From IMG/VR virus record IMGVR_UViG_3300030372_000681, positions 1 through 26,156 of that record: 26,156 nt of DNA, one strand, 5' to 3'. Both the position numbers and the translations under genes were made by a program. The stretch's first letter is position 1. Each line of letters begins with the position of its first letter. This document shows, one piece after another, positions 24-7,574 of the stretch. The notes under the pieces are model-generated. The model was not told where the DNA came from, did not search any database, and worked only from the letters and a program-made list of their open reading frames with translations. The DNA comes from a virus (Duplodnaviria; Caudoviricetes).

Positions 24-293
24 ATGGAGGATGGTTTCTTAATAGCTTTAATAGGTGCTTTAGGTATTAAGCAAGTTTGGGATATTATCAAACAAAAGAT
101 TGATATTAACGCTAAAAAAGAAGAGCGTGATGATGGTGTAATAACAGACCATATTGAGTCCTTAAGTAAAAAAATATCTCAACTTGAAAAGAAAATTGAC
201 GAGCTTATAGAAGAAAATTTAAGACTTAAAGTTAAAGTAGCTAAGATGGAGGAGAGATTAATTTTAAATGCTAAAAACAGGGTAAAGAAATGA
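24..293 (+). CDS. Membrane-anchored coiled-coil protein, probable lysis accessory (holin- or spanin-like)
   Basis: N-terminal hydrophobic stretch FLIALIGALGI, then a heptad-rich coiled coil. ATGA overlap with the endolysin gene. Confidence 0.55.
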   Translation: MEDGFLIALIGALGIKQVWDIIKQKIDINAKKEERDDGVITDHIESLSKKISQLEKKIDELIEENLRLKVKVAKMEERLILNAKNRVKK

Positions 294-757
294 AACTATC
301 TAAAAATTTATCGCTAAGTGAAATGACTAAAAGCAATACCGCTACTAGACTAGGAATAAACAACGAACCTACCGAGGACCATGTGCTTAACATGAAAGAC
401 CTAGCTGAGTCTATATTTCAGCCGATTAGAGAGCACTTTGCGTCTCCTATATACATAAGCTCAGGCTATAGGGGGAATGATTTAAATAAGGCTATTAATG
501 GAAGTAAATCATCTCAGCATTGTAGAGGTGAAGCGATTGATATTGATATGGATTATAAGAATAGTGTCTCTAACGCTGAAGTATTTAATTATATAAAAGA
601 CAACTTAGATTTCGATCAACTTATATGGGAGTTTGGTACAGATAAAAACCCTAATTGGGTGCATGTTTCATACAACACTAAGGGACCACAAAGAAAACAG
701 ATATTAGTAGCTTATAAAAACGATAAAAGAAAAACCAAATATAAACTGTATGAGTAA
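290..757 (+). CDS. Endolysin, zinc peptidase of the M15A family
   Basis: Motifs ISSGYR, SQHxxGEAID and WVHVS are typical of Peptidase_M15_3 phage lysins. Confidence 0.88.
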   Translation: MKLSKNLSLSEMTKSNTATRLGINNEPTEDHVLNMKDLAESIFQPIREHFASPIYISSGYRGNDLNKAINGSKSSQHCRGEAIDIDMDYKNSVSNAEVFNYIKDNLDFDQLIWEFGTDKNPNWVHVSYNTKGPQRKQILVAYKNDKRKTKYKLYE

Positions 758-1205
758 CAAAAAGAAGTTTAAAGATACTGCAATAGGTAAGTTTTTAAAA
801 TCAAAAGCTCCTCAAGTATTAGATATAGTTGGAGATGTGCTTCCAGATAAAGGTGCTTTAGGAATAGTAAAGAACTTAATAGATAAAGATGATACTATAG
901 ATCCTGAAACTAAAAAAATGTTACACGAACAACTAATAGAATCATATAAAACCGAAGTAGCTGATAGAGATAGTGCAAGAAAAAGAGAGGTAGAAATAGC
1001 TAAAGTAAGAAAGTTTGATTTTTTATTTACATTAACTGGCTTGGTTGGACTTGGTACATTTGTTTTTTTAGTATATGCAATAGTTTATATTAACATACCC
1101 GAACACAATGAGAAAACATTCTACACTTTAATAGGTTTATGTGAGGGTATAACTTTAAGTATATTTAGTTTCTACTTTGGTTCCTCAATGAGAAAAGATA
1201 AATAA
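750..1205 (+). CDS. Putative holin (GTA 3TM-holin-like)
   Basis: DRDSARKRE motif followed by two hydrophobic helices and a C-terminal FYFGSS. Overlaps the endolysin gene. Confidence 0.65.
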   Translation: MSNKKKFKDTAIGKFLKSKAPQVLDIVGDVLPDKGALGIVKNLIDKDDTIDPETKKMLHEQLIESYKTEVADRDSARKREVEIAKVRKFDFLFTLTGLVGLGTFVFLVYAIVYINIPEHNEKTFYTLIGLCEGITLSIFSFYFGSSMRKDK

Positions 1206-1207
1206 TC

Positions 1208-1276
1208 ATGAAAGATTGTAATTGTCAAGTATGTAAATGCAGCTCAAGCTGCTCGTGTAAATGTTGTAACTGTTAA
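1208..1276 (+). CDS. 22-aa cysteine-rich metallothionein-like peptide MKDCNCQVCKCSSSCSCKCCNC
   Basis: Hand translation; not in the ORF track. 9 of 22 residues are Cys, in CxC/CC clusters. Starts 2 nt after the previous stop and ends 1 nt before the next ATG. Same AATCATG start context as the genes at 24 and 22766. Confidence 0.7.
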   Translation: MKDCNCQVCKCSSSCSCKCCNC

Positions 1277-1277
1277 T

Positions 1278-1430
1278 ATGGAAAAAGAAATAGAAGAATT
1301 AAAGTCTCAACTTACTGGAGATATGTTTAAAGATATGGATATCAAAGATAAGATACACAACTTAGAAATGAAGTTAAAGGGTGTGAAACCAGAAGATTCT
1401 CATTTTGACTGTATAGGATGTGGGTCTTGA
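1278..1430 (+). CDS. 50-aa small protein with C-terminal CxxCGS motif (MEKEIEELKSQLTGDMFKDMDIKDKIHNLEMKLKGVKPEDSHFDCIGCGS)
   Basis: Hand translation; not in the ORF track. Uninterrupted frame from ATG 1278 to TGA 1430, predicted helical with an acidic CIGCGS tail. Confidence 0.78.
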   Translation: MEKEIEELKSQLTGDMFKDMDIKDKIHNLEMKLKGVKPEDSHFDCIGCGS

Positions 1431-2091: not shown

Positions 2092-2661
2092 ATGAGATCA
2101 CCTTTTCATTTTTTAATTAAACCACTAGGCGGTAATAGGTATAAACACACTAAAGATATTAATGGTGTAGATTTTATAGTTAGTTCTTCACAAGAAGACC
2201 ATACTGCTACAAACAGATACGCTGAAGTAGTGGAGCCACCTATTGTTTACGATGGAGATATTAAAAAAGGAGATATATTAATTGTTCACCACAATGTGTT
2301 TAGAAAGTACTATGATATGAAGGGTCGAGAAAAAAGCGGCCCTTCTTTTTTCATGGATGATTTATACATTATAGATAATGAACAATTTTTTCTTTATAAG
2401 GATCCTTCTGTAGAAAAATGGATTGCTCCTAATCCGTATTGTTTTATAGAACCTATTAACAAAGAAGAATCATTATTCAATGATGGCGGTGCTCATAAAA
2501 ATTTATTGGGAAAAATTAAGTATATTAATAGTGAATTGAAGTCTAAGGGGCTTAATATAGGTGATGTTATTAGTTTTCAACCTGAGAGTGAGTATGAGTT
2601 TGATATAGATGGAGATAAACTATATAGAATGTTCACACGTAATATTTGCATGTTGGTATGA
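2092..2661 (+). CDS. GroES-like co-chaperonin with two tandem GroES-like repeats
   Basis: Two units of the pattern (F)xxxP...A/GxV/I...xxGDxxx: FLIKP..AEVV..IKKGDILIV and CFIEP..GKIKY..LNIGDVISF..EFDIDGDKLYRM. Confidence 0.65.
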   Translation: MRSPFHFLIKPLGGNRYKHTKDINGVDFIVSSSQEDHTATNRYAEVVEPPIVYDGDIKKGDILIVHHNVFRKYYDMKGREKSGPSFFMDDLYIIDNEQFFLYKDPSVEKWIAPNPYCFIEPINKEESLFNDGGAHKNLLGKIKYINSELKSKGLNIGDVISFQPESEYEFDIDGDKLYRMFTRNICMLV

Positions 2662-2936
2662 CTACAAGAGAAATAAAAGAAGATATTATAAAAGCTGGAG
2701 AACTAGCGGTAAAGCAGTTAGTAAAAGTTGCTAAGGAAGAAATAATTAAACCTGATCCAGAGGATGAGTTAGCAGCAGACAGGTTAAAGAATGCAGCAGC
2801 GACTAAGAAGCTTGCTATATTTGACGCATTTGAAATATTAAATAGAATAGAAGCAGAAAGGTCTTTATTAAACGAAGAGCCTGAAAAAGAAAGCAAGAAT
2901 AAATCATTTGGTTTTGCAGAACGAAGATCAAAATAA
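2658..2936 (+). CDS. Putative terminase small subunit
   Basis: Small helical protein directly upstream of and overlapping TerL. Start moved to ATG 2658 (ATGA overlap with the previous stop). Confidence 0.55.
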   Translation: MTTREIKEDIIKAGELAVKQLVKVAKEEIIKPDPEDELAADRLKNAAATKKLAIFDAFEILNRIEAERSLLNEEPEKESKNKSFGFAERRSK

Positions 2937-5148
2937 TCTATACACAGTATTAAAAAAGCCTATCCCTAATACAGTTATGGCTTCTAAAAATAAAGCCAAG
3001 ACATGGGAGTATGGCTATCATAAGAAGTATGATTTAGTTGTTATATCTAAAAATGGAACCCTGGGAGATGTGTATGAAATAAATGGGGTTAAAGTAGGAC
3101 TACCTAAGACACCTAAAAAAGTTGACAAGGGTGTTAACAAGTGGCAAACAAAAGAGTATCCTAAAGAATTACAAAGAATAAAAACAGTTTTTGATTGGAG
3201 TAGAAGAGATAATGCATTTAAAAATAAATGGGTTGACTTTGTAGAGAATGAATTTGATATAAGAGAGTATGGCTACTGGTTTACTAATAACAACAAACCA
3301 ACATACATCACAGGGTCTCACTATATGTACTTACAGTGGACTAAGATAGATATAGGACTTCCTGATTTTAGAGAAGCTAATAGAATATTTTTTATTTACT
3401 GGGAGGCGTGTAAGGCTGATAAAAGATGTTTTGGAATGTGCTACCTAAAGAACAGACGTTCTGGGTTTTCTTTTATGAGTTCTTCTGAAACGGTTAATCA
3501 AGCTACTATATCAAGAGATTCCAGGCTAGGTATATTATCTAAGACAGGGTCAGATGCTAAAAAAATGTTTACAGATAAGGTAGTTCCTATTTCTAATCAC
3601 TATCCCTTTTTCTTTAAACCTATTCAAGATGGTATGGATAAGCCAAAGACTGAATTAGCTTATAGAGTTCCAGCTAGTAAGATTACAAAGAAGAATATGT
3701 ATGAGCAGGATGACAATGATGTAGATGGATTAGACACTACTATTGACTGGAAGAATACTGATGACAACTCTTACGATGGGGAAAAGTTATTACTATTAGT
3801 TAGTGATGAATCTGGAAAATGGCTAAAACCTAACAATATACTAAATAACTGGCGTGTAACCAAAACATGTCTACGATTAGGTAGTAAAATAGTTGGTAAA
3901 TGTATGATGGGTTCTACGTGTAACGCTCTGAATAAAGGTGGTGGTAACTTTAAAAAACTGTACGAAGATTCAAATCCCTTTGAAAGAAATGCTAATGGTC
4001 AAACTAAAACAGGTTTATATAGTTTATTTATTCCTATGGAGTGGAACTTTGAAGGATATATAGATGAGTTTGGGATGCCTGTATTTAAAACACCAGAAAA
4101 GCCAGTGGTTGGTGTAGATGGAGAATATATAGAAACAGGTGTTATAGATTATTGGAAGAACGAAGTAGACTCTTTAAAAGGGGATAATGATGCATTGAAT
4201 GAATTTTACAGACAATTTCCTAGAACAGAAAACCACGCATTTAGAGATGAAAGCAAATCATCTATATTTAATTTAACTAAACTATACCAGCAGATAGATT
4301 ATAATGAGTCACTTATAAAGGATAGGTTTTTAACTAAGGGTAGTTTTCATTGGAGAGATGGAATAAAAGATAGTAAGGTAGTATGGGTTCCTAATAACAC
4401 AGGAAGATTTTTAGTTTCATGGATACCAAAAGGTAACTTACAAAACAATGTGATTGATAAAGGAGGCAGATATCTTCCTGGTAATGAGCACTTAGGTAGC
4501 TTTGGATGTGACCCTTATGACATATCAGCTACTGTTATGGGTAGGGGATCTAATGGTTCATTACATGGAATGACTAAGTTTAATATGGATGATGTTCCTA
4601 GTAATGAGTTTTTCTTAGAGTATGTAGCTAGACCGCAAACAGCAGAGATGTTTTTTGAAGATATTTTAATGGCGTGTGTGTTTTACGGTATGCCTGTACT
4701 TGTAGAAAACAACAAGGCTAGATTATTGTATCATTTTAAGAATAGAGGGTATAGAGCTTTTTCTATGAATAGGCCAGACAAATTAAAAAATAAACTATCT
4801 GCTTCTGAGAAAGAACTAGGTGGAATACCTAACTCATCTGAGGATGTTAAGCAAGCACACGCTGCTGCTATTGAAGCCTATATAGAAAAATATGTAGGAT
4901 TAGATTTAGATAATGTATATAGAGATCCAGATGAAATGGGTTCTATGTATTTTACTAGAACATTAATGGATTGGGCTAAGTTTGATATAAACAATAGAAC
5001 TAAATATGATGCCTCTATTAGTTCAGGATTAGCTATAATGGCTAATCAGAAGCATTTATATAATCCAGTTGTAAAAGAGTCAAAAATTTCTATTAACTTT
5101 GCAAGATATAGTAACAAGGGAAATAGAAGCCAAATTATAAATAAATGA
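2908..5148 (+). CDS. terL: Terminase large subunit
   Basis: Walker A-like LKNRRSGFS, Walker B LLLLVSDESGK, coupling motif MMGST, and RNase H-like nuclease acidic motifs (FGCDPYD, LVENN, KYDASIS). Start uncertain (TTG 2908/2914 or ATG 2977). Confidence 0.9.
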   Translation: MVLQNEDQNNLYTVLKKPIPNTVMASKNKAKTWEYGYHKKYDLVVISKNGTLGDVYEINGVKVGLPKTPKKVDKGVNKWQTKEYPKELQRIKTVFDWSRRDNAFKNKWVDFVENEFDIREYGYWFTNNNKPTYITGSHYMYLQWTKIDIGLPDFREANRIFFIYWEACKADKRCFGMCYLKNRRSGFSFMSSSETVNQATISRDSRLGILSKTGSDAKKMFTDKVVPISNHYPFFFKPIQDGMDKPKTELAYRVPASKITKKNMYEQDDNDVDGLDTTIDWKNTDDNSYDGEKLLLLVSDESGKWLKPNNILNNWRVTKTCLRLGSKIVGKCMMGSTCNALNKGGGNFKKLYEDSNPFERNANGQTKTGLYSLFIPMEWNFEGYIDEFGMPVFKTPEKPVVGVDGEYIETGVIDYWKNEVDSLKGDNDALNEFYRQFPRTENHAFRDESKSSIFNLTKLYQQIDYNESLIKDRFLTKGSFHWRDGIKDSKVVWVPNNTGRFLVSWIPKGNLQNNVIDKGGRYLPGNEHLGSFGCDPYDISATVMGRGSNGSLHGMTKFNMDDVPSNEFFLEYVARPQTAEMFFEDILMACVFYGMPVLVENNKARLLYHFKNRGYRAFSMNRPDKLKNKLSASEKELGGIPNSSEDVKQAHAAAIEAYIEKYVGLDLDNVYRDPDEMGSMYFTRTLMDWAKFDINNRTKYDASISSGLAIMANQKHLYNPVVKESKISINFARYSNKGNRSQIINK

Positions 5149-7574
5149 AGGAGCCTATAGTATTAATAAACCCTGTAACTTTTCCTAATCAACTCGCAAC
5201 GGATAGCCAGAAAGCTACCGAGGAATACGGTTTACAGGTAGGGCATGCTATTCAGTACGAATGGTTTAAAAGGACAGGTAACACATGTAGGTATTACAAT
5301 CAATGGGTAGAGTTTCACAAACTTAGATTATACGCAAGAGGAGAACAACCCGTTGATAAGTATAAATCCGAATTAGCTATAGATGGAGACCTTTCCTATT
5401 TAAACCTAGACTGGACACCTGTACCGATTATTCCAAAGTTCGTTGACATAGTAGTTAACGGCATGTCTAATAGATTATTTACCGTACAAGCATATGCGCA
5501 GGATGCATTAGCATCTGATCAGAGAATGGGATATCAGAAGATGATTGAGGCTGATATGGTAGCTAAAGATTTTTTAAATCAATCAAAAGAATTATATGGT
5601 ATAGATGCATTTAATACAAATGCAGAAGATCTACCAGCGGACGATCAGGAGTTACAGCTACATATGCAGCTAGAGTATAAGCCTGGTATAGAGATAGCAG
5701 AAGAAGAAGCTATTAACACAATACTAGAAGAGAATCATTATTATGATGTTAGAAAAAGAGTAGACTATGATATATGTACTCTTGGTATGGGTTGGTTAAA
5801 GCATGAGTTCTTAGCAAATGCGGGTGTTAAAGTTAATTACGTAGATCCCGCTAATTTAGTATATAGCTATAGTGAGAGTCCAACATTTGAGGATTGTTTT
5901 TATTTTGGAGAAGTAAAAAGAGTTCCTATTACAGAGTTATTAAAGATTAATCCAGATTTAAGTAAAGAAGATTTAGAAGAAATATCTCAGCTTAGTTCTA
6001 GTTGGTATGGCCACTATGGTATATTAAATCCATATAGAGATAGCTTATTTGAGAAGGATGTAGTTTGTTTGTTATACTTTAATTATAAGACAGACAAGAA
6101 GTTTGTATATAAGAAAAAATATTTAGATAACGGAGGCGAAAAAGTAATTAGAAAAGATGACTCTTTTAATCCACCTGCTGAAGACCAAGAAAGATTCGAG
6201 AAAATAGAAAAAAGAATTGATGTATGGTATGAGGGTGTGATGGTATTGGGTAGCAATAAATTACTTAAATGGGATTTAGCTAAGAATATGGTTAGACCTA
6301 AATCAGCATCTCAATATGCTACACCTAACTATATAGGGGTTGCTCCAAGAATGTATAAAGGAGTAGTTGAATCATTAGTAAGACGTATGACTACGTTTGC
6401 TGATTTAATTCAAATGACTCATTTAAAACTACAACAAGTCATATCAAGAGTAGTTCCAGATGGTGTTTACATTGACGCTGATGGATTAAACGAGGTTGAT
6501 TTAGGTACAGGAGCAGCATATAACCCAGAGGATGCTTTAAGACTTTATTTCCAAACAGGTTCTGTTATTGGTAGAAGTTTTACGCAAGATGGTGAGTTTA
6601 ATCATGGTAAGGTTCCTATTCAAGAATTATCAAGCAACTCAGGTCAATCTAAGATATCTAGTTTGATATATACTTACAACCACTACCTTGGTATGATAAG
6701 AGATGTGACGGGTCTTAATGAAGCTAGAGACGCTTCCAGTCCTGATCCAAATTCTTTAGTAGGGCTACAGAAGTTAGCTGCTTTAAATTCAAACACTGCT
6801 ACTAGACATATATTAGATGGTAGTTTATATATTACAAGAAGATTAGCTGAGGCTTTATCTTGTAGAATATCTGATGTGTTAGAGTATTCAGCAACTAAGG
6901 AAGAGTTTATAAACCAAATAGGTAAGTATAATGTAAATACTTTAGAAGATATAAAAGACTTATACCTACATGACTTTGGTATTTTTATTGAAGTTTCTCC
7001 TGATGAAGAAGAAAAGGCTCAGTTAGAAGCTAACATACAGGTGGCTTTAGGTAGAGATCAGATTACTTTAGAGGATGCAATTGATATCAGACAGATTAAA
7101 AATATTAAGATGGCTAATCAACTGTTAAAAGTCAAGAGAAAGAATAAAGAAAGAAAAGACGTAGAGAGAGAGAACGAGAAAATGCAGATGCAGGCTCAGA
7201 TTAATAATCAATCCTCACAGGCTGCGGCTCAAGCTAAGATGCAGGTTGCTCAAGCAGAAACACAATCTAAGGTTCAAGTTAAGCAAGCGGAGGCTGCCTT
7301 TGAAATAGAAAAGATGAATGCACAAGCTGCTCTTAAGAGAGACTTGATGCAGGTAGAGTTCCAAATGAATATGCAGTTAAAAGGTGTAGAAGCTCAAGCT
7401 ATAGTGACTAGAGATGAGATGAAGGAGAAAGCTAAAGATAATAGAGTTTCTATACAAAATACACAACAATCTAAACTAATACAACAAAGGAAAGATAACT
7501 TACCACCAATTAATTTTGAGTCCAATGAAGACTCATTAGATGGTTTTGACTTAGCAGAGTTTGACCCTAGGTAA
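5145..7574 (+). CDS. Portal protein
   Basis: 809 aa directly after TerL. N-terminal PIIPKFVDIVVNG and a long Q/A/K-rich C-terminal coiled coil (barrel), as in podovirus portals. Confidence 0.85.
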   Translation: MKEPIVLINPVTFPNQLATDSQKATEEYGLQVGHAIQYEWFKRTGNTCRYYNQWVEFHKLRLYARGEQPVDKYKSELAIDGDLSYLNLDWTPVPIIPKFVDIVVNGMSNRLFTVQAYAQDALASDQRMGYQKMIEADMVAKDFLNQSKELYGIDAFNTNAEDLPADDQELQLHMQLEYKPGIEIAEEEAINTILEENHYYDVRKRVDYDICTLGMGWLKHEFLANAGVKVNYVDPANLVYSYSESPTFEDCFYFGEVKRVPITELLKINPDLSKEDLEEISQLSSSWYGHYGILNPYRDSLFEKDVVCLLYFNYKTDKKFVYKKKYLDNGGEKVIRKDDSFNPPAEDQERFEKIEKRIDVWYEGVMVLGSNKLLKWDLAKNMVRPKSASQYATPNYIGVAPRMYKGVVESLVRRMTTFADLIQMTHLKLQQVISRVVPDGVYIDADGLNEVDLGTGAAYNPEDALRLYFQTGSVIGRSFTQDGEFNHGKVPIQELSSNSGQSKISSLIYTYNHYLGMIRDVTGLNEARDASSPDPNSLVGLQKLAALNSNTATRHILDGSLYITRRLAEALSCRISDVLEYSATKEEFINQIGKYNVNTLEDIKDLYLHDFGIFIEVSPDEEEKAQLEANIQVALGRDQITLEDAIDIRQIKNIKMANQLLKVKRKNKERKDVERENEKMQMQAQINNQSSQAAAQAKMQVAQAETQSKVQVKQAEAAFEIEKMNAQAALKRDLMQVEFQMNMQLKGVEAQAIVTRDEMKEKAKDNRVSIQNTQQSKLIQQRKDNLPPINFESNEDSLDGFDLAEFDPR

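What the first reader, a model, noticed from the sequence alone, without database searches (positions are those of the whole stretch)
1208..1276. Phage-encoded 22-aa metallothionein-like micro-gene
Seen: MKDCNCQVCKCSSSCSCKCCNC has 9 Cys in 22 aa (CxC, CxC, CxCxCC, xC), spacers mostly Ser/Lys/Asn, and no aromatic residues. It exactly fills the gap between two genes and has a normal start context. Known: this composition defines metallothioneins; the vertebrate beta domain uses 9 Cys, and fungal Cu-thioneins are about 25 aa. Known bacterial metallothioneins (SmtA/BmtA, MymT) are roughly twice as long. Inference: a minimal viral Cu/Zn/Cd-binding peptide below gene-caller size limits, possibly buffering metal or oxidative stress during infection, or handling Zn for the Zn-dependent M15 endolysin in the same cassette.
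Basis: partly seen in the sequence, partly recalled or inferred. Interest (0 to 1): 0.9.

Follow-up and report, generated by a model that had tools for sequence, protein, structure and literature searches.

The report
Phage-borne nine-cysteine micro-metallothionein
A 22-codon gene with nine cysteines in an ocean phage is a conserved member of a large, unannotated family shared by marine phages and tiny-genome marine bacteria, and it likely makes one of the smallest metal-binding proteins, although metal binding is untested.

Summary
The ORF at 1208-1276 (+) is a real gene. An anchored cysteine pattern finds 54 IMG/VR loci, against 0 for the reversed-spacing control. The family has 168 distinct 19-23-aa peptides, all with nine Cys. 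Features I did not search for come with it: Ser14, a Bacteroidota-type start context, and an in-frame start 6-9 nt after GGAG in 73 of 78 metagenome loci. It is also chromosomal in 36 streamlined marine Bacteroidota genomes. None of these has a P1B heavy-metal ATPase, against 173 of 200 non-carrier Flavobacteriales; but their sister genomes without the gene mostly lack the pump too. Its cysteine skeleton equals the published C-terminal domain of plant MT2-2 metallothioneins. The endolysin link is not supported: there are 70 different neighbour pairs, and close relatives lost the gene cleanly but kept the endolysin. Best reading: a free-standing, single-domain metallothionein-like Cu/Zn buffer carried as an accessory phage gene. 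Translation and binding are unmeasured. This scan has reported the same family before on other DNA (four notes). My ten paper searches found no description of it.

The parts
1208..1276 (+). 22-aa nine-cysteine micro-gene, skeleton CxCxxCxCxxxCxCxCCxC, ending in Cys then stop
1195..1207 (+). A-rich start context without Shine-Dalgarno (A at -3, -6, -12, -13); overlaps the end of the upstream gene
   Evidence: across 41 family DNA sequences A at -3 in 95% and at -6 in 83%; A-3 promotes initiation in Bacteroidetes (PMC6847099 abstract and section list)
750..1205 (+). context: 151-aa membrane protein, holin-like by position only (weak PHROG hits of unknown function); in relatives that lost the micro-gene the next ORF follows it directly
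290..757 (+). context: Peptidase_M15_3 endolysin; not co-conserved with the micro-gene
1278..1430 (+). context: conserved 50-aa ORF ending in CxxCGS; the micro-gene lies just upstream in only 3 of 60 related loci
2908..7574 (+). context: terminase large subunit and portal; cultured relatives are ~60-kb Flavobacterium phages and Cellulophaga phages (top cultured hits 44% identical), so the host is likely Bacteroidota

Best explanation
It is a conserved, free-standing gene whose likely product is a 22-residue metallothionein-like peptide, predicted to wrap its nine cysteines around one small metal-thiolate cluster and so buffer copper or zinc in the cytoplasm. Shown: the frame, the fixed nine-Cys skeleton, the start signals, the spread over many unrelated phage gene neighbourhoods, and chromosomal copies in streamlined marine Bacteroidota that lack P1B metal pumps. 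Inferred: the peptide is made (likely late in infection here, as it sits inside the lysis-to-packaging gene run); it is unfolded without metal and folds on about 3 Zn/Cd or 5-6 Cu(I), by analogy with nine-Cys beta domains and fungal Cu-thioneins; in hosts it is a 66-base stand-in for pump-based metal handling; in phages it is a dispensable extra that damps free Cu/Zn and thiol stress in the infected cell. I lean to Cu(I) (about 50%) over Zn/Cd (about 35%).
For: Gene is real. 54 viral loci against 0 for the control. With neither start nor stop in the pattern, 15 of the 16 non-poly-Cys matches have a stop right after the last Cys and a Met 1-3 codons before the first. 73 of 78 GGAG-anchored metagenome loci have an unsearched in-frame start 6-9 nt after GGAG. 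0 of 41 sequences have a stop in the free codons, Ser14 is kept in 36 of 38 peptides, and Cys codons vary TGT/TGC. Spacing is constrained: with both linkers free, 105 of 120 matches keep 2+3, 7 have 2+2, and 8 are shadow frames. Metallothionein likeness: the skeleton equals plant MT2-2 C-terminal CXCXXCXCXXXCXCXCCXC (PMC3677015 Table 1) in 156 of 168 peptides. The only Pfam hit at E<=10 is PF01439, at its C-terminal end where shown (7 of 55 members). The only PDB hit is 2KAK, 'EC protein I/II' (a wheat metallothionein, from recall). Aromatics occur in 2 and His in 1 of 167 peptides. Host context: 0 of 36 carriers have a P1B ATPase, against 173 of 200 non-carrier Flavobacteriales and 58 of 81 size-matched ones. 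All 5 carriers tested have the heme-copper oxidase subunit COX1, 1 of 5 a CDF exporter, and 0 of 5 a CzcA above cut-off. The human beta-MT1A fragment forms Zn3 and Cu6 clusters (PMC9846682 abstract).
Against: No expression, translation or binding data. The Pfam (best E 0.48) and PDB (E 4.9) hits are far from significant, and the window's own peptide hits no family. No metal transporter or metal regulator appears among 77 viral neighbour representatives or 20 neighbours of GTDB hits, and I saw no shared palindrome upstream of 34 host copies. The pump anticorrelation is confounded by lineage: 12 of 12 and 19 of 20 non-carrier genomes listed alongside the carriers also lack the pump, the genomes are incomplete, and only a few independent lineages are involved. 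Purifying selection on the 12 free codons is weak (pN/pS 0.76). The nine Cys span 19 residues, tighter than the 27-residue mollusc beta domains, so a classical M3S9 fold is not assured. The 156-of-168 count is partly built in by my search patterns. The gene is dispensable for this phage clade (9 of 13 syntenic copies lack it).
Confidence: 0.74

Rival explanations
1. A thiol redox buffer or cysteine/sulfur store: the peptide is made and its thiols scavenge oxidants, with metal binding incidental.
For: 41% Cys; only 1 of 5 carrier hosts has a GSH-S_ATP (glutathione synthetase) match; no metal genes nearby.
Against: A redox sink or store needs no fixed spacing, yet 105 of 120 free-spacing matches keep the exact skeleton and Ser14 is nearly invariant. 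It overlaps with the best reading, because metallothioneins are also reductants (recalled).
Confidence: 0.1
2. A carrier of iron or an Fe-S cluster, or a metal-loaded accessory packed into the virion.
For: In phages it lies in line with its upstream gene in 100 of 102 contexts, often among genes that look structural or lytic; one host copy is next to flavodoxin; all 5 hosts tested have a Fur-family gene.
Against: Host chromosomal copies stand alone in non-phage synteny (GlnA, Na/Ca exchanger, tRNA-Arg, pirin), so a virion role cannot be general. The skeleton matches a metallothionein domain.
Confidence: 0.07
3. A cysteine-sensing leader peptide (attenuator), like the mycobacterial polycysteine short ORFs: what matters is ribosome stalling on Cys codons, not the product.
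For: Short, Cys-codon-rich, and within 100 nt of a same-strand downstream gene in 70 of 105 viral contexts; precedent 10.1101/834739 (search listing only).
Against: Only 4 of 32 host copies have a same-strand ORF within 100 nt downstream. The downstream genes are unrelated to each other (70 neighbour pairs) and none scanned is a sulfur gene. Spacing and non-Cys residues are conserved.
Confidence: 0.03
4. A zinc chaperone for the M15 endolysin of the same cassette.
For: It lies 450 nt downstream of the M15 gene here; one further viral locus, L355, has an M15 neighbour.
Against: 3 of 108 viral loci have an M15 gene in the flank, and 8 of 9 relatives without the micro-gene keep the endolysin; hosts carry the gene with no lysis genes nearby.
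Confidence: 0.02
5. Precursor of a modified or disulfide-bonded peptide (RiPP or defensin-like).
For: Rich in Cys, Ser and Asn, and short.
Against: At most 4 residues precede the first Cys, so there is no leader or signal peptide; the Cys count is odd; no conserved modifying enzyme or exporter is among the neighbours.
Confidence: 0.03

Closest known systems
C-terminal domain of plant type-2 metallothioneins, subgroup MT2-2 (Pfam PF01439; PMC3677015 Table 1)
   Same: Identical nine-Cys skeleton CXCXXCXCXXXCXCXCCXC; sub-threshold PF01439 hits at profile positions 62-81 of 81.
   Different: No N-terminal CC domain and no long spacer (about 40 aa in MT2-1); a free-standing 19-23-aa gene in phages and bacteria; below the Pfam cut-off. 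Homology or convergence cannot be told from 19 residues.
Fungal Cu-thioneins of Neurospora crassa and Agaricus bisporus (family 8)
   Same: Single-domain, CxC-rich and very short (26 aa, once held to be the shortest MTs; PMC4755600 passages).
   Different: Seven Cys as CXC-X5-CXC-X3-CXC-X2-C; 0 of 168 peptides match this skeleton.
Nine-Cys beta domains of animal metallothioneins
   Same: Nine Cys; the human beta fragment forms Zn3 and Cu6 clusters.
   Different: Mollusc beta1-3 skeletons span 27 residues against 19 here, with 0 matches; they are parts of two-domain proteins.
Bacterial metallothioneins SmtA/BmtA, PmtA, MymT
   Same: Bacterial, small, Cys-rich metal buffers.
   Different: 56-70 aa, nearly all with His, and SmtB-controlled in cyanobacteria (PMC12193353 passages). 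This family has His in 1 of 167, no NCBIfam hit and no ArsR/SmtB gene among the neighbours scanned.

Membership tests
Metallothionein superfamily | Low molecular mass, high Cys content | tested here: met
   2.38 kDa, 9 of 22 residues; definition from PMC7826182 passage
Metallothionein superfamily | Cys arranged in conserved CxC and CC motifs | tested here: met
Metallothionein superfamily | Aromatic residues absent or rare (criterion recalled) | tested here: met
   2 of 167 peptides have one aromatic residue
Metallothionein superfamily | Binds several d10 metal ions in thiolate clusters | not testable with these tools
Metallothionein superfamily | Metal-responsive expression or metal-tolerance phenotype | tested here: inconclusive
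   no metal regulator among neighbours; no shared upstream palindrome by a simple scan; carriers lack P1B pumps but so do their sisters
Plant MT2-2 | C-terminal skeleton CXCXXCXCXXXCXCXCCXC | tested here: met
Plant MT2-2 | N-terminal CCXXXCXCXXXCXCXXXCXXC domain and Cys-free spacer | tested here: not met
   peptides are 19-23 aa in all
Plant MT (PF01439) | Score above the Pfam cut-off of 23 bits | tested here: not met
   best 11.6 bits; best E 0.48 among 55 members
Bacterial BmtA/SmtA | 56-70 aa with Cys and His ligands | tested here: not met
Fungal family-8 Cu-thionein | CXC-X5-CXC-X3-CXC-X2-C, seven Cys | tested here: not met
Polycysteine attenuator ORFs | Leader ORF directly ahead of a co-transcribed regulated gene | tested here: not met
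   4 of 32 host copies; unrelated downstream genes in phages

The most novel reading that the evidence does not exclude
The family is a minimal single-domain metallothionein that replaces pump-based copper/zinc control in streamlined ocean Bacteroidota and is shuttled by phages between host groups with different translation-start signals. Phage infection would then actively set the metal quota of infected ocean cells, and the same nine-cysteine module would be shared by descent with plant MT2-2 domains.
Probability: 0.18. Interest if true: 0.92.

Novelty: new variant of a known kind. Interest (0 to 1): 0.72.

Why it matters
If binding is confirmed, this is a new prokaryotic and viral metallothionein family, 19-23 aa long and shorter than the 26-aa fungal peptides once called the shortest. 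About 220 IMG/VR stretches match the flexible pattern, most of them family members, and none of 8 peptides tried is in the protein collection. It would be a natural test of how few residues a nine-thiolate cluster needs. It would explain how 1-2 Mb ocean Bacteroidota with a copper oxidase but no P1B pump handle copper. It would also add metal buffering to what marine phages do to their hosts. A 22-mer can be synthesised and tested in days.

Tried and rejected
Bare Cys pattern: swamped by shadows of Ala/Thr repeats on the other strand; 105 of its 121 loci had no match with 10 Cys or fewer and an open frame (the output was cut). Pfam, PHROGs and NCBIfam: no hit for the window peptide. tblastn of the peptide against 50,697 GenBank phages: no match, though sensitivity for a 22-aa low-complexity query is poor. 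RNA runs: no RNA holder listed, so no evidence either way. Flavobacteriales sample: only the centre genome of 401 had a real match; 5 other genomes gave poly-TGT shadows. Rows dropped (38 hits): L326 (Streptomyces shadow ending in TGG), L333 (a different archaeal 33-aa peptide) and L337 (phage-like contig in a MAG). Rows dropped: 5 of 78 shadows. Promoter and terminator scan of 1-2200: nothing above shuffles. Upstream palindrome scan: no shared motif. The K/N ratio (0.47 in hosts, 0.94 in phages) as a hint of copper preference rests on a recalled rule; one search gave one listing only, so I did not lean on it. Papers: 10 searches; the exact phrases for a phage or viral metallothionein gave 0. 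One preprint names unspecified metallothioneins among viral auxiliary genes (PMC13317609, one passage). PMC12856327 (passages and 9 supplementary files) holds no family motif. The 2022 global phage small-gene catalogue (PMC9254267) was not held, and GMSC (PMC11364881) was seen as a listing only; either could contain the family unnamed. 10.64898/2026.09.19.752864 and PMC8836122 (passages) added nothing on MT2-2.

Full report
OBSERVATION. The window is a 26-kb virus record with an M15 endolysin, GroES, terminase, portal and virion genes. The terminase's cultured relatives are mostly Flavobacterium and Cellulophaga phages, the top ones 44% identical, so a Bacteroidota host is likely. Bases 1208-1276 read MKDCNCQVCKCSSSCSCKCCNC*, 2 nt after the 151-aa membrane-protein gene and 1 nt before a 50-aa ORF. 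In 300 resampled windows no short ORF had more than 6 Cys.

IS IT A GENE? Yes, on comparative grounds. (a) Of 80 loci anchored on the upstream gene, 12 keep the 50-aa gene downstream. Three of these (L001, L003, L035) carry the micro-ORF with all nine Cys; L003 differs at 7 non-Cys residues. (b) An ATG-to-stop pattern gives 54 IMG/VR loci and 37 peptides; the same pattern with reversed spacing gives 0. (c) Unsearched features are conserved: N/D at 5 (34 of 38), Ser14 (36 of 38), N/D at 21 (30 of 38), no stop in the free codons of 41 sequences, and A at -3 in 95%. A-3 is a known Bacteroidetes start determinant (PMC6847099 abstract). (d) With no start or stop in the pattern, 15 of 16 non-poly-Cys matches end in a stop and start at a nearby Met. 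(e) In a metagenome scan anchored on GGAG, 73 of 78 loci have an in-frame start 6-9 nt behind it, 60 of them at 7 nt, so the gene takes on the start signal of its genome. (f) With both linkers free, 105 of 120 matches keep the 2+3 spacing and 7 have 2+2; the scan estimates about 220 stretches in IMG/VR. Against: pN/pS on the 12 free codons is only 0.76, and the two nearest copies each differ by one amino-acid change and no silent change in the coding codons. Selection acts on the skeleton and hardly on the spacers. Translation itself was not observed.

DISTRIBUTION. The union is 168 peptides including the window's, 19-23 aa, each with nine Cys. In viruses, 108 distinct contexts give 78 neighbour families and 70 upstream/downstream pairs. 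No metal-handling gene is among 77 neighbour representatives, and only 3 of 108 loci have an M15 gene in the held flank, about 1.5 kb a side. In this phage's clade the gene is present in 4 and absent in 9 of 13 syntenic copies. Trees of both flanks need at least two changes, L003 (present) is sister to L010/L040 (absent), and the junction suggests deletion. It is an accessory gene, not part of the lysis machinery. In GTDB the pattern has 38 hits, of which 35 loci in 34 genomes are chromosomal marine Bacteroidota (Flavobacteriaceae, Cryomorphaceae, Cytophagales, single-cell genomes), many in a conserved GlnA - Na/Ca exchanger - tRNA-Arg - gene - pirin neighbourhood. It is common in one group (22 of the first 34 genomes listed, 0.6-1.4 Mb and incomplete), patchy in a Cytophagales group (5 of the first 25), and was not found in 400 other Flavobacteriales. 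The grouping is my reading of row order and size, as the tool gave no kinship. Host copies mostly stand alone (4 of 32 with a same-strand ORF within 100 nt downstream) and often have a promoter-like box just upstream. The direction of transfer between hosts and phages cannot be told.

MECHANISM. The skeleton CXCXXCXCXXXCXCXCCXC is letter for letter the C-terminal domain pattern of plant MT2-2 metallothioneins (PMC3677015 Table 1 and passages), in the window peptide and in 156 of 168 family members. There are 19,448 ways to place nine Cys in such a span, but CxC-rich patterns are far likelier than that figure suggests and I compared several published patterns, so the match is suggestive and not a proof of descent. 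Profile searches point the same way but weakly: PF01439 only, best E 0.48, and PDB 2KAK only, E 4.9. No other skeleton tested matches (fungal family 8, mollusc beta1-3, plant MT2-1 and MT2-3). By analogy, the human beta domain holds Zn3 or Cu6 (PMC9846682 abstract) and seven-Cys fungal units hold Cu5 (PMC4755600 passages); I infer one cluster of about 3 divalent or 5-6 Cu(I) ions. Host genomes add indirect support: 0 of 36 carriers have a P1B ATPase against 173 of 200 non-carriers in the order and 58 of 81 at 1.0-1.9 Mb. Of 5 carriers tested, all have COX1 and a Fur-family gene, 1 has a CDF exporter and none a full CzcA. So the gene is confined to cells that need copper and seem to lack the usual export pumps. 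This is not a clean association: non-carrier sisters lack the pump too (12 of 12, and 19 of 20), the Fisher values ignore kinship, and no metal regulator or operator was found. The rivals (redox or sulfur store, Fe or virion cargo, attenuator, endolysin chaperone, RiPP) are weighed in their own sections.

COMPARISON AND NOVELTY. It works like a metallothionein, most likely; it meets the compositional criteria, while the functional ones could not be tested. It is not a member of plant MT2-2, BmtA/SmtA or fungal family 8, since a defining feature of each fails. I file it as a new variant of a known kind. Ten paper searches found no description (listed under Tried and rejected); two small-gene catalogues could not be checked in full, and supplements I could not see may list the family. 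'Smallest metallothionein' should not be claimed outright: I recall, unverified, a 22-aa six-Cys fungal MT, and this scan holds notes on 16-aa seven-Cys candidates. The scan had already reported this family on other DNA in four notes, which I read after stating my own reading; they are not independent evidence. What I tested here beyond their summaries is the Shine-Dalgarno test, the gain-and-loss analysis in this clade, the pump anticorrelation with its limits, and the exact match to the published MT2-2 skeleton.

VERDICT. Real gene about 0.97; metal-thiolate buffer as its main job 0.74; link to the endolysin about 0.02. Interest 0.72: surprising to metallothionein and marine-virus specialists and cheap to test, but function rests on sequence pattern and genome context alone.

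Noticed in passing
window 1278-1430 (+): A 50-aa ORF ending in DSHFDCIGCGS, with relatives in 60 viral loci in varied contexts. The CxxCGS tail recalls the redox-active C-terminal tail of ribonucleotide reductases (from memory); no Pfam or PHROG family.
   Followed up: partly
L333, around 2501-2602 (-), archaeal MAG: A 33-aa Cys-rich ORF (11 Cys) between a class-V aminotransferase (IscS-like) gene and DUF1858 and NifU_N genes: a candidate small partner in an Fe-S assembly operon, distinct from this family.
   Followed up: no
L010 and L040, end of the membrane-protein gene: In relatives lacking the micro-gene, the upstream gene ends on a TAG-T-ATG junction identical to the micro-gene's own stop context in L003 and L035, which points to a deletion that hands the stop codon to the upstream gene.
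   Followed up: yes
L479, L481, L489 and about 70 other metagenome loci; L372, L383, L388, L405: Family members with a Shine-Dalgarno start, many beside genes for secreted or outer-membrane-like proteins with no Pfam hit; their hosts are likely not Bacteroidota. Host unassigned.
   Followed up: partly
L316-L353: 24 of 33 GTDB loci scanned have a tRNA gene within 2.5 kb, mostly tRNA-Arg(ACG). A TAnnTT[TA][GA] element (like the recalled Bacteroidota -7 promoter box) lies 8-43 nt upstream in 21 of 34 host copies, against a shuffle mean of 12.4.
   Followed up: partly
genomes G001, G002, G405-G436; G003 and G439-G470: Two groups of streamlined marine Bacteroidota almost wholly lack P1B-type ATPases (0 of 34, and 1 of 25), although even 0.3-0.6 Mb Flavobacteriales keep one.
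   Followed up: partly
L320, 2495-2560 (+): A host copy whose start codon reads ATA instead of ATG; a non-standard start or a decaying gene.
   Followed up: no
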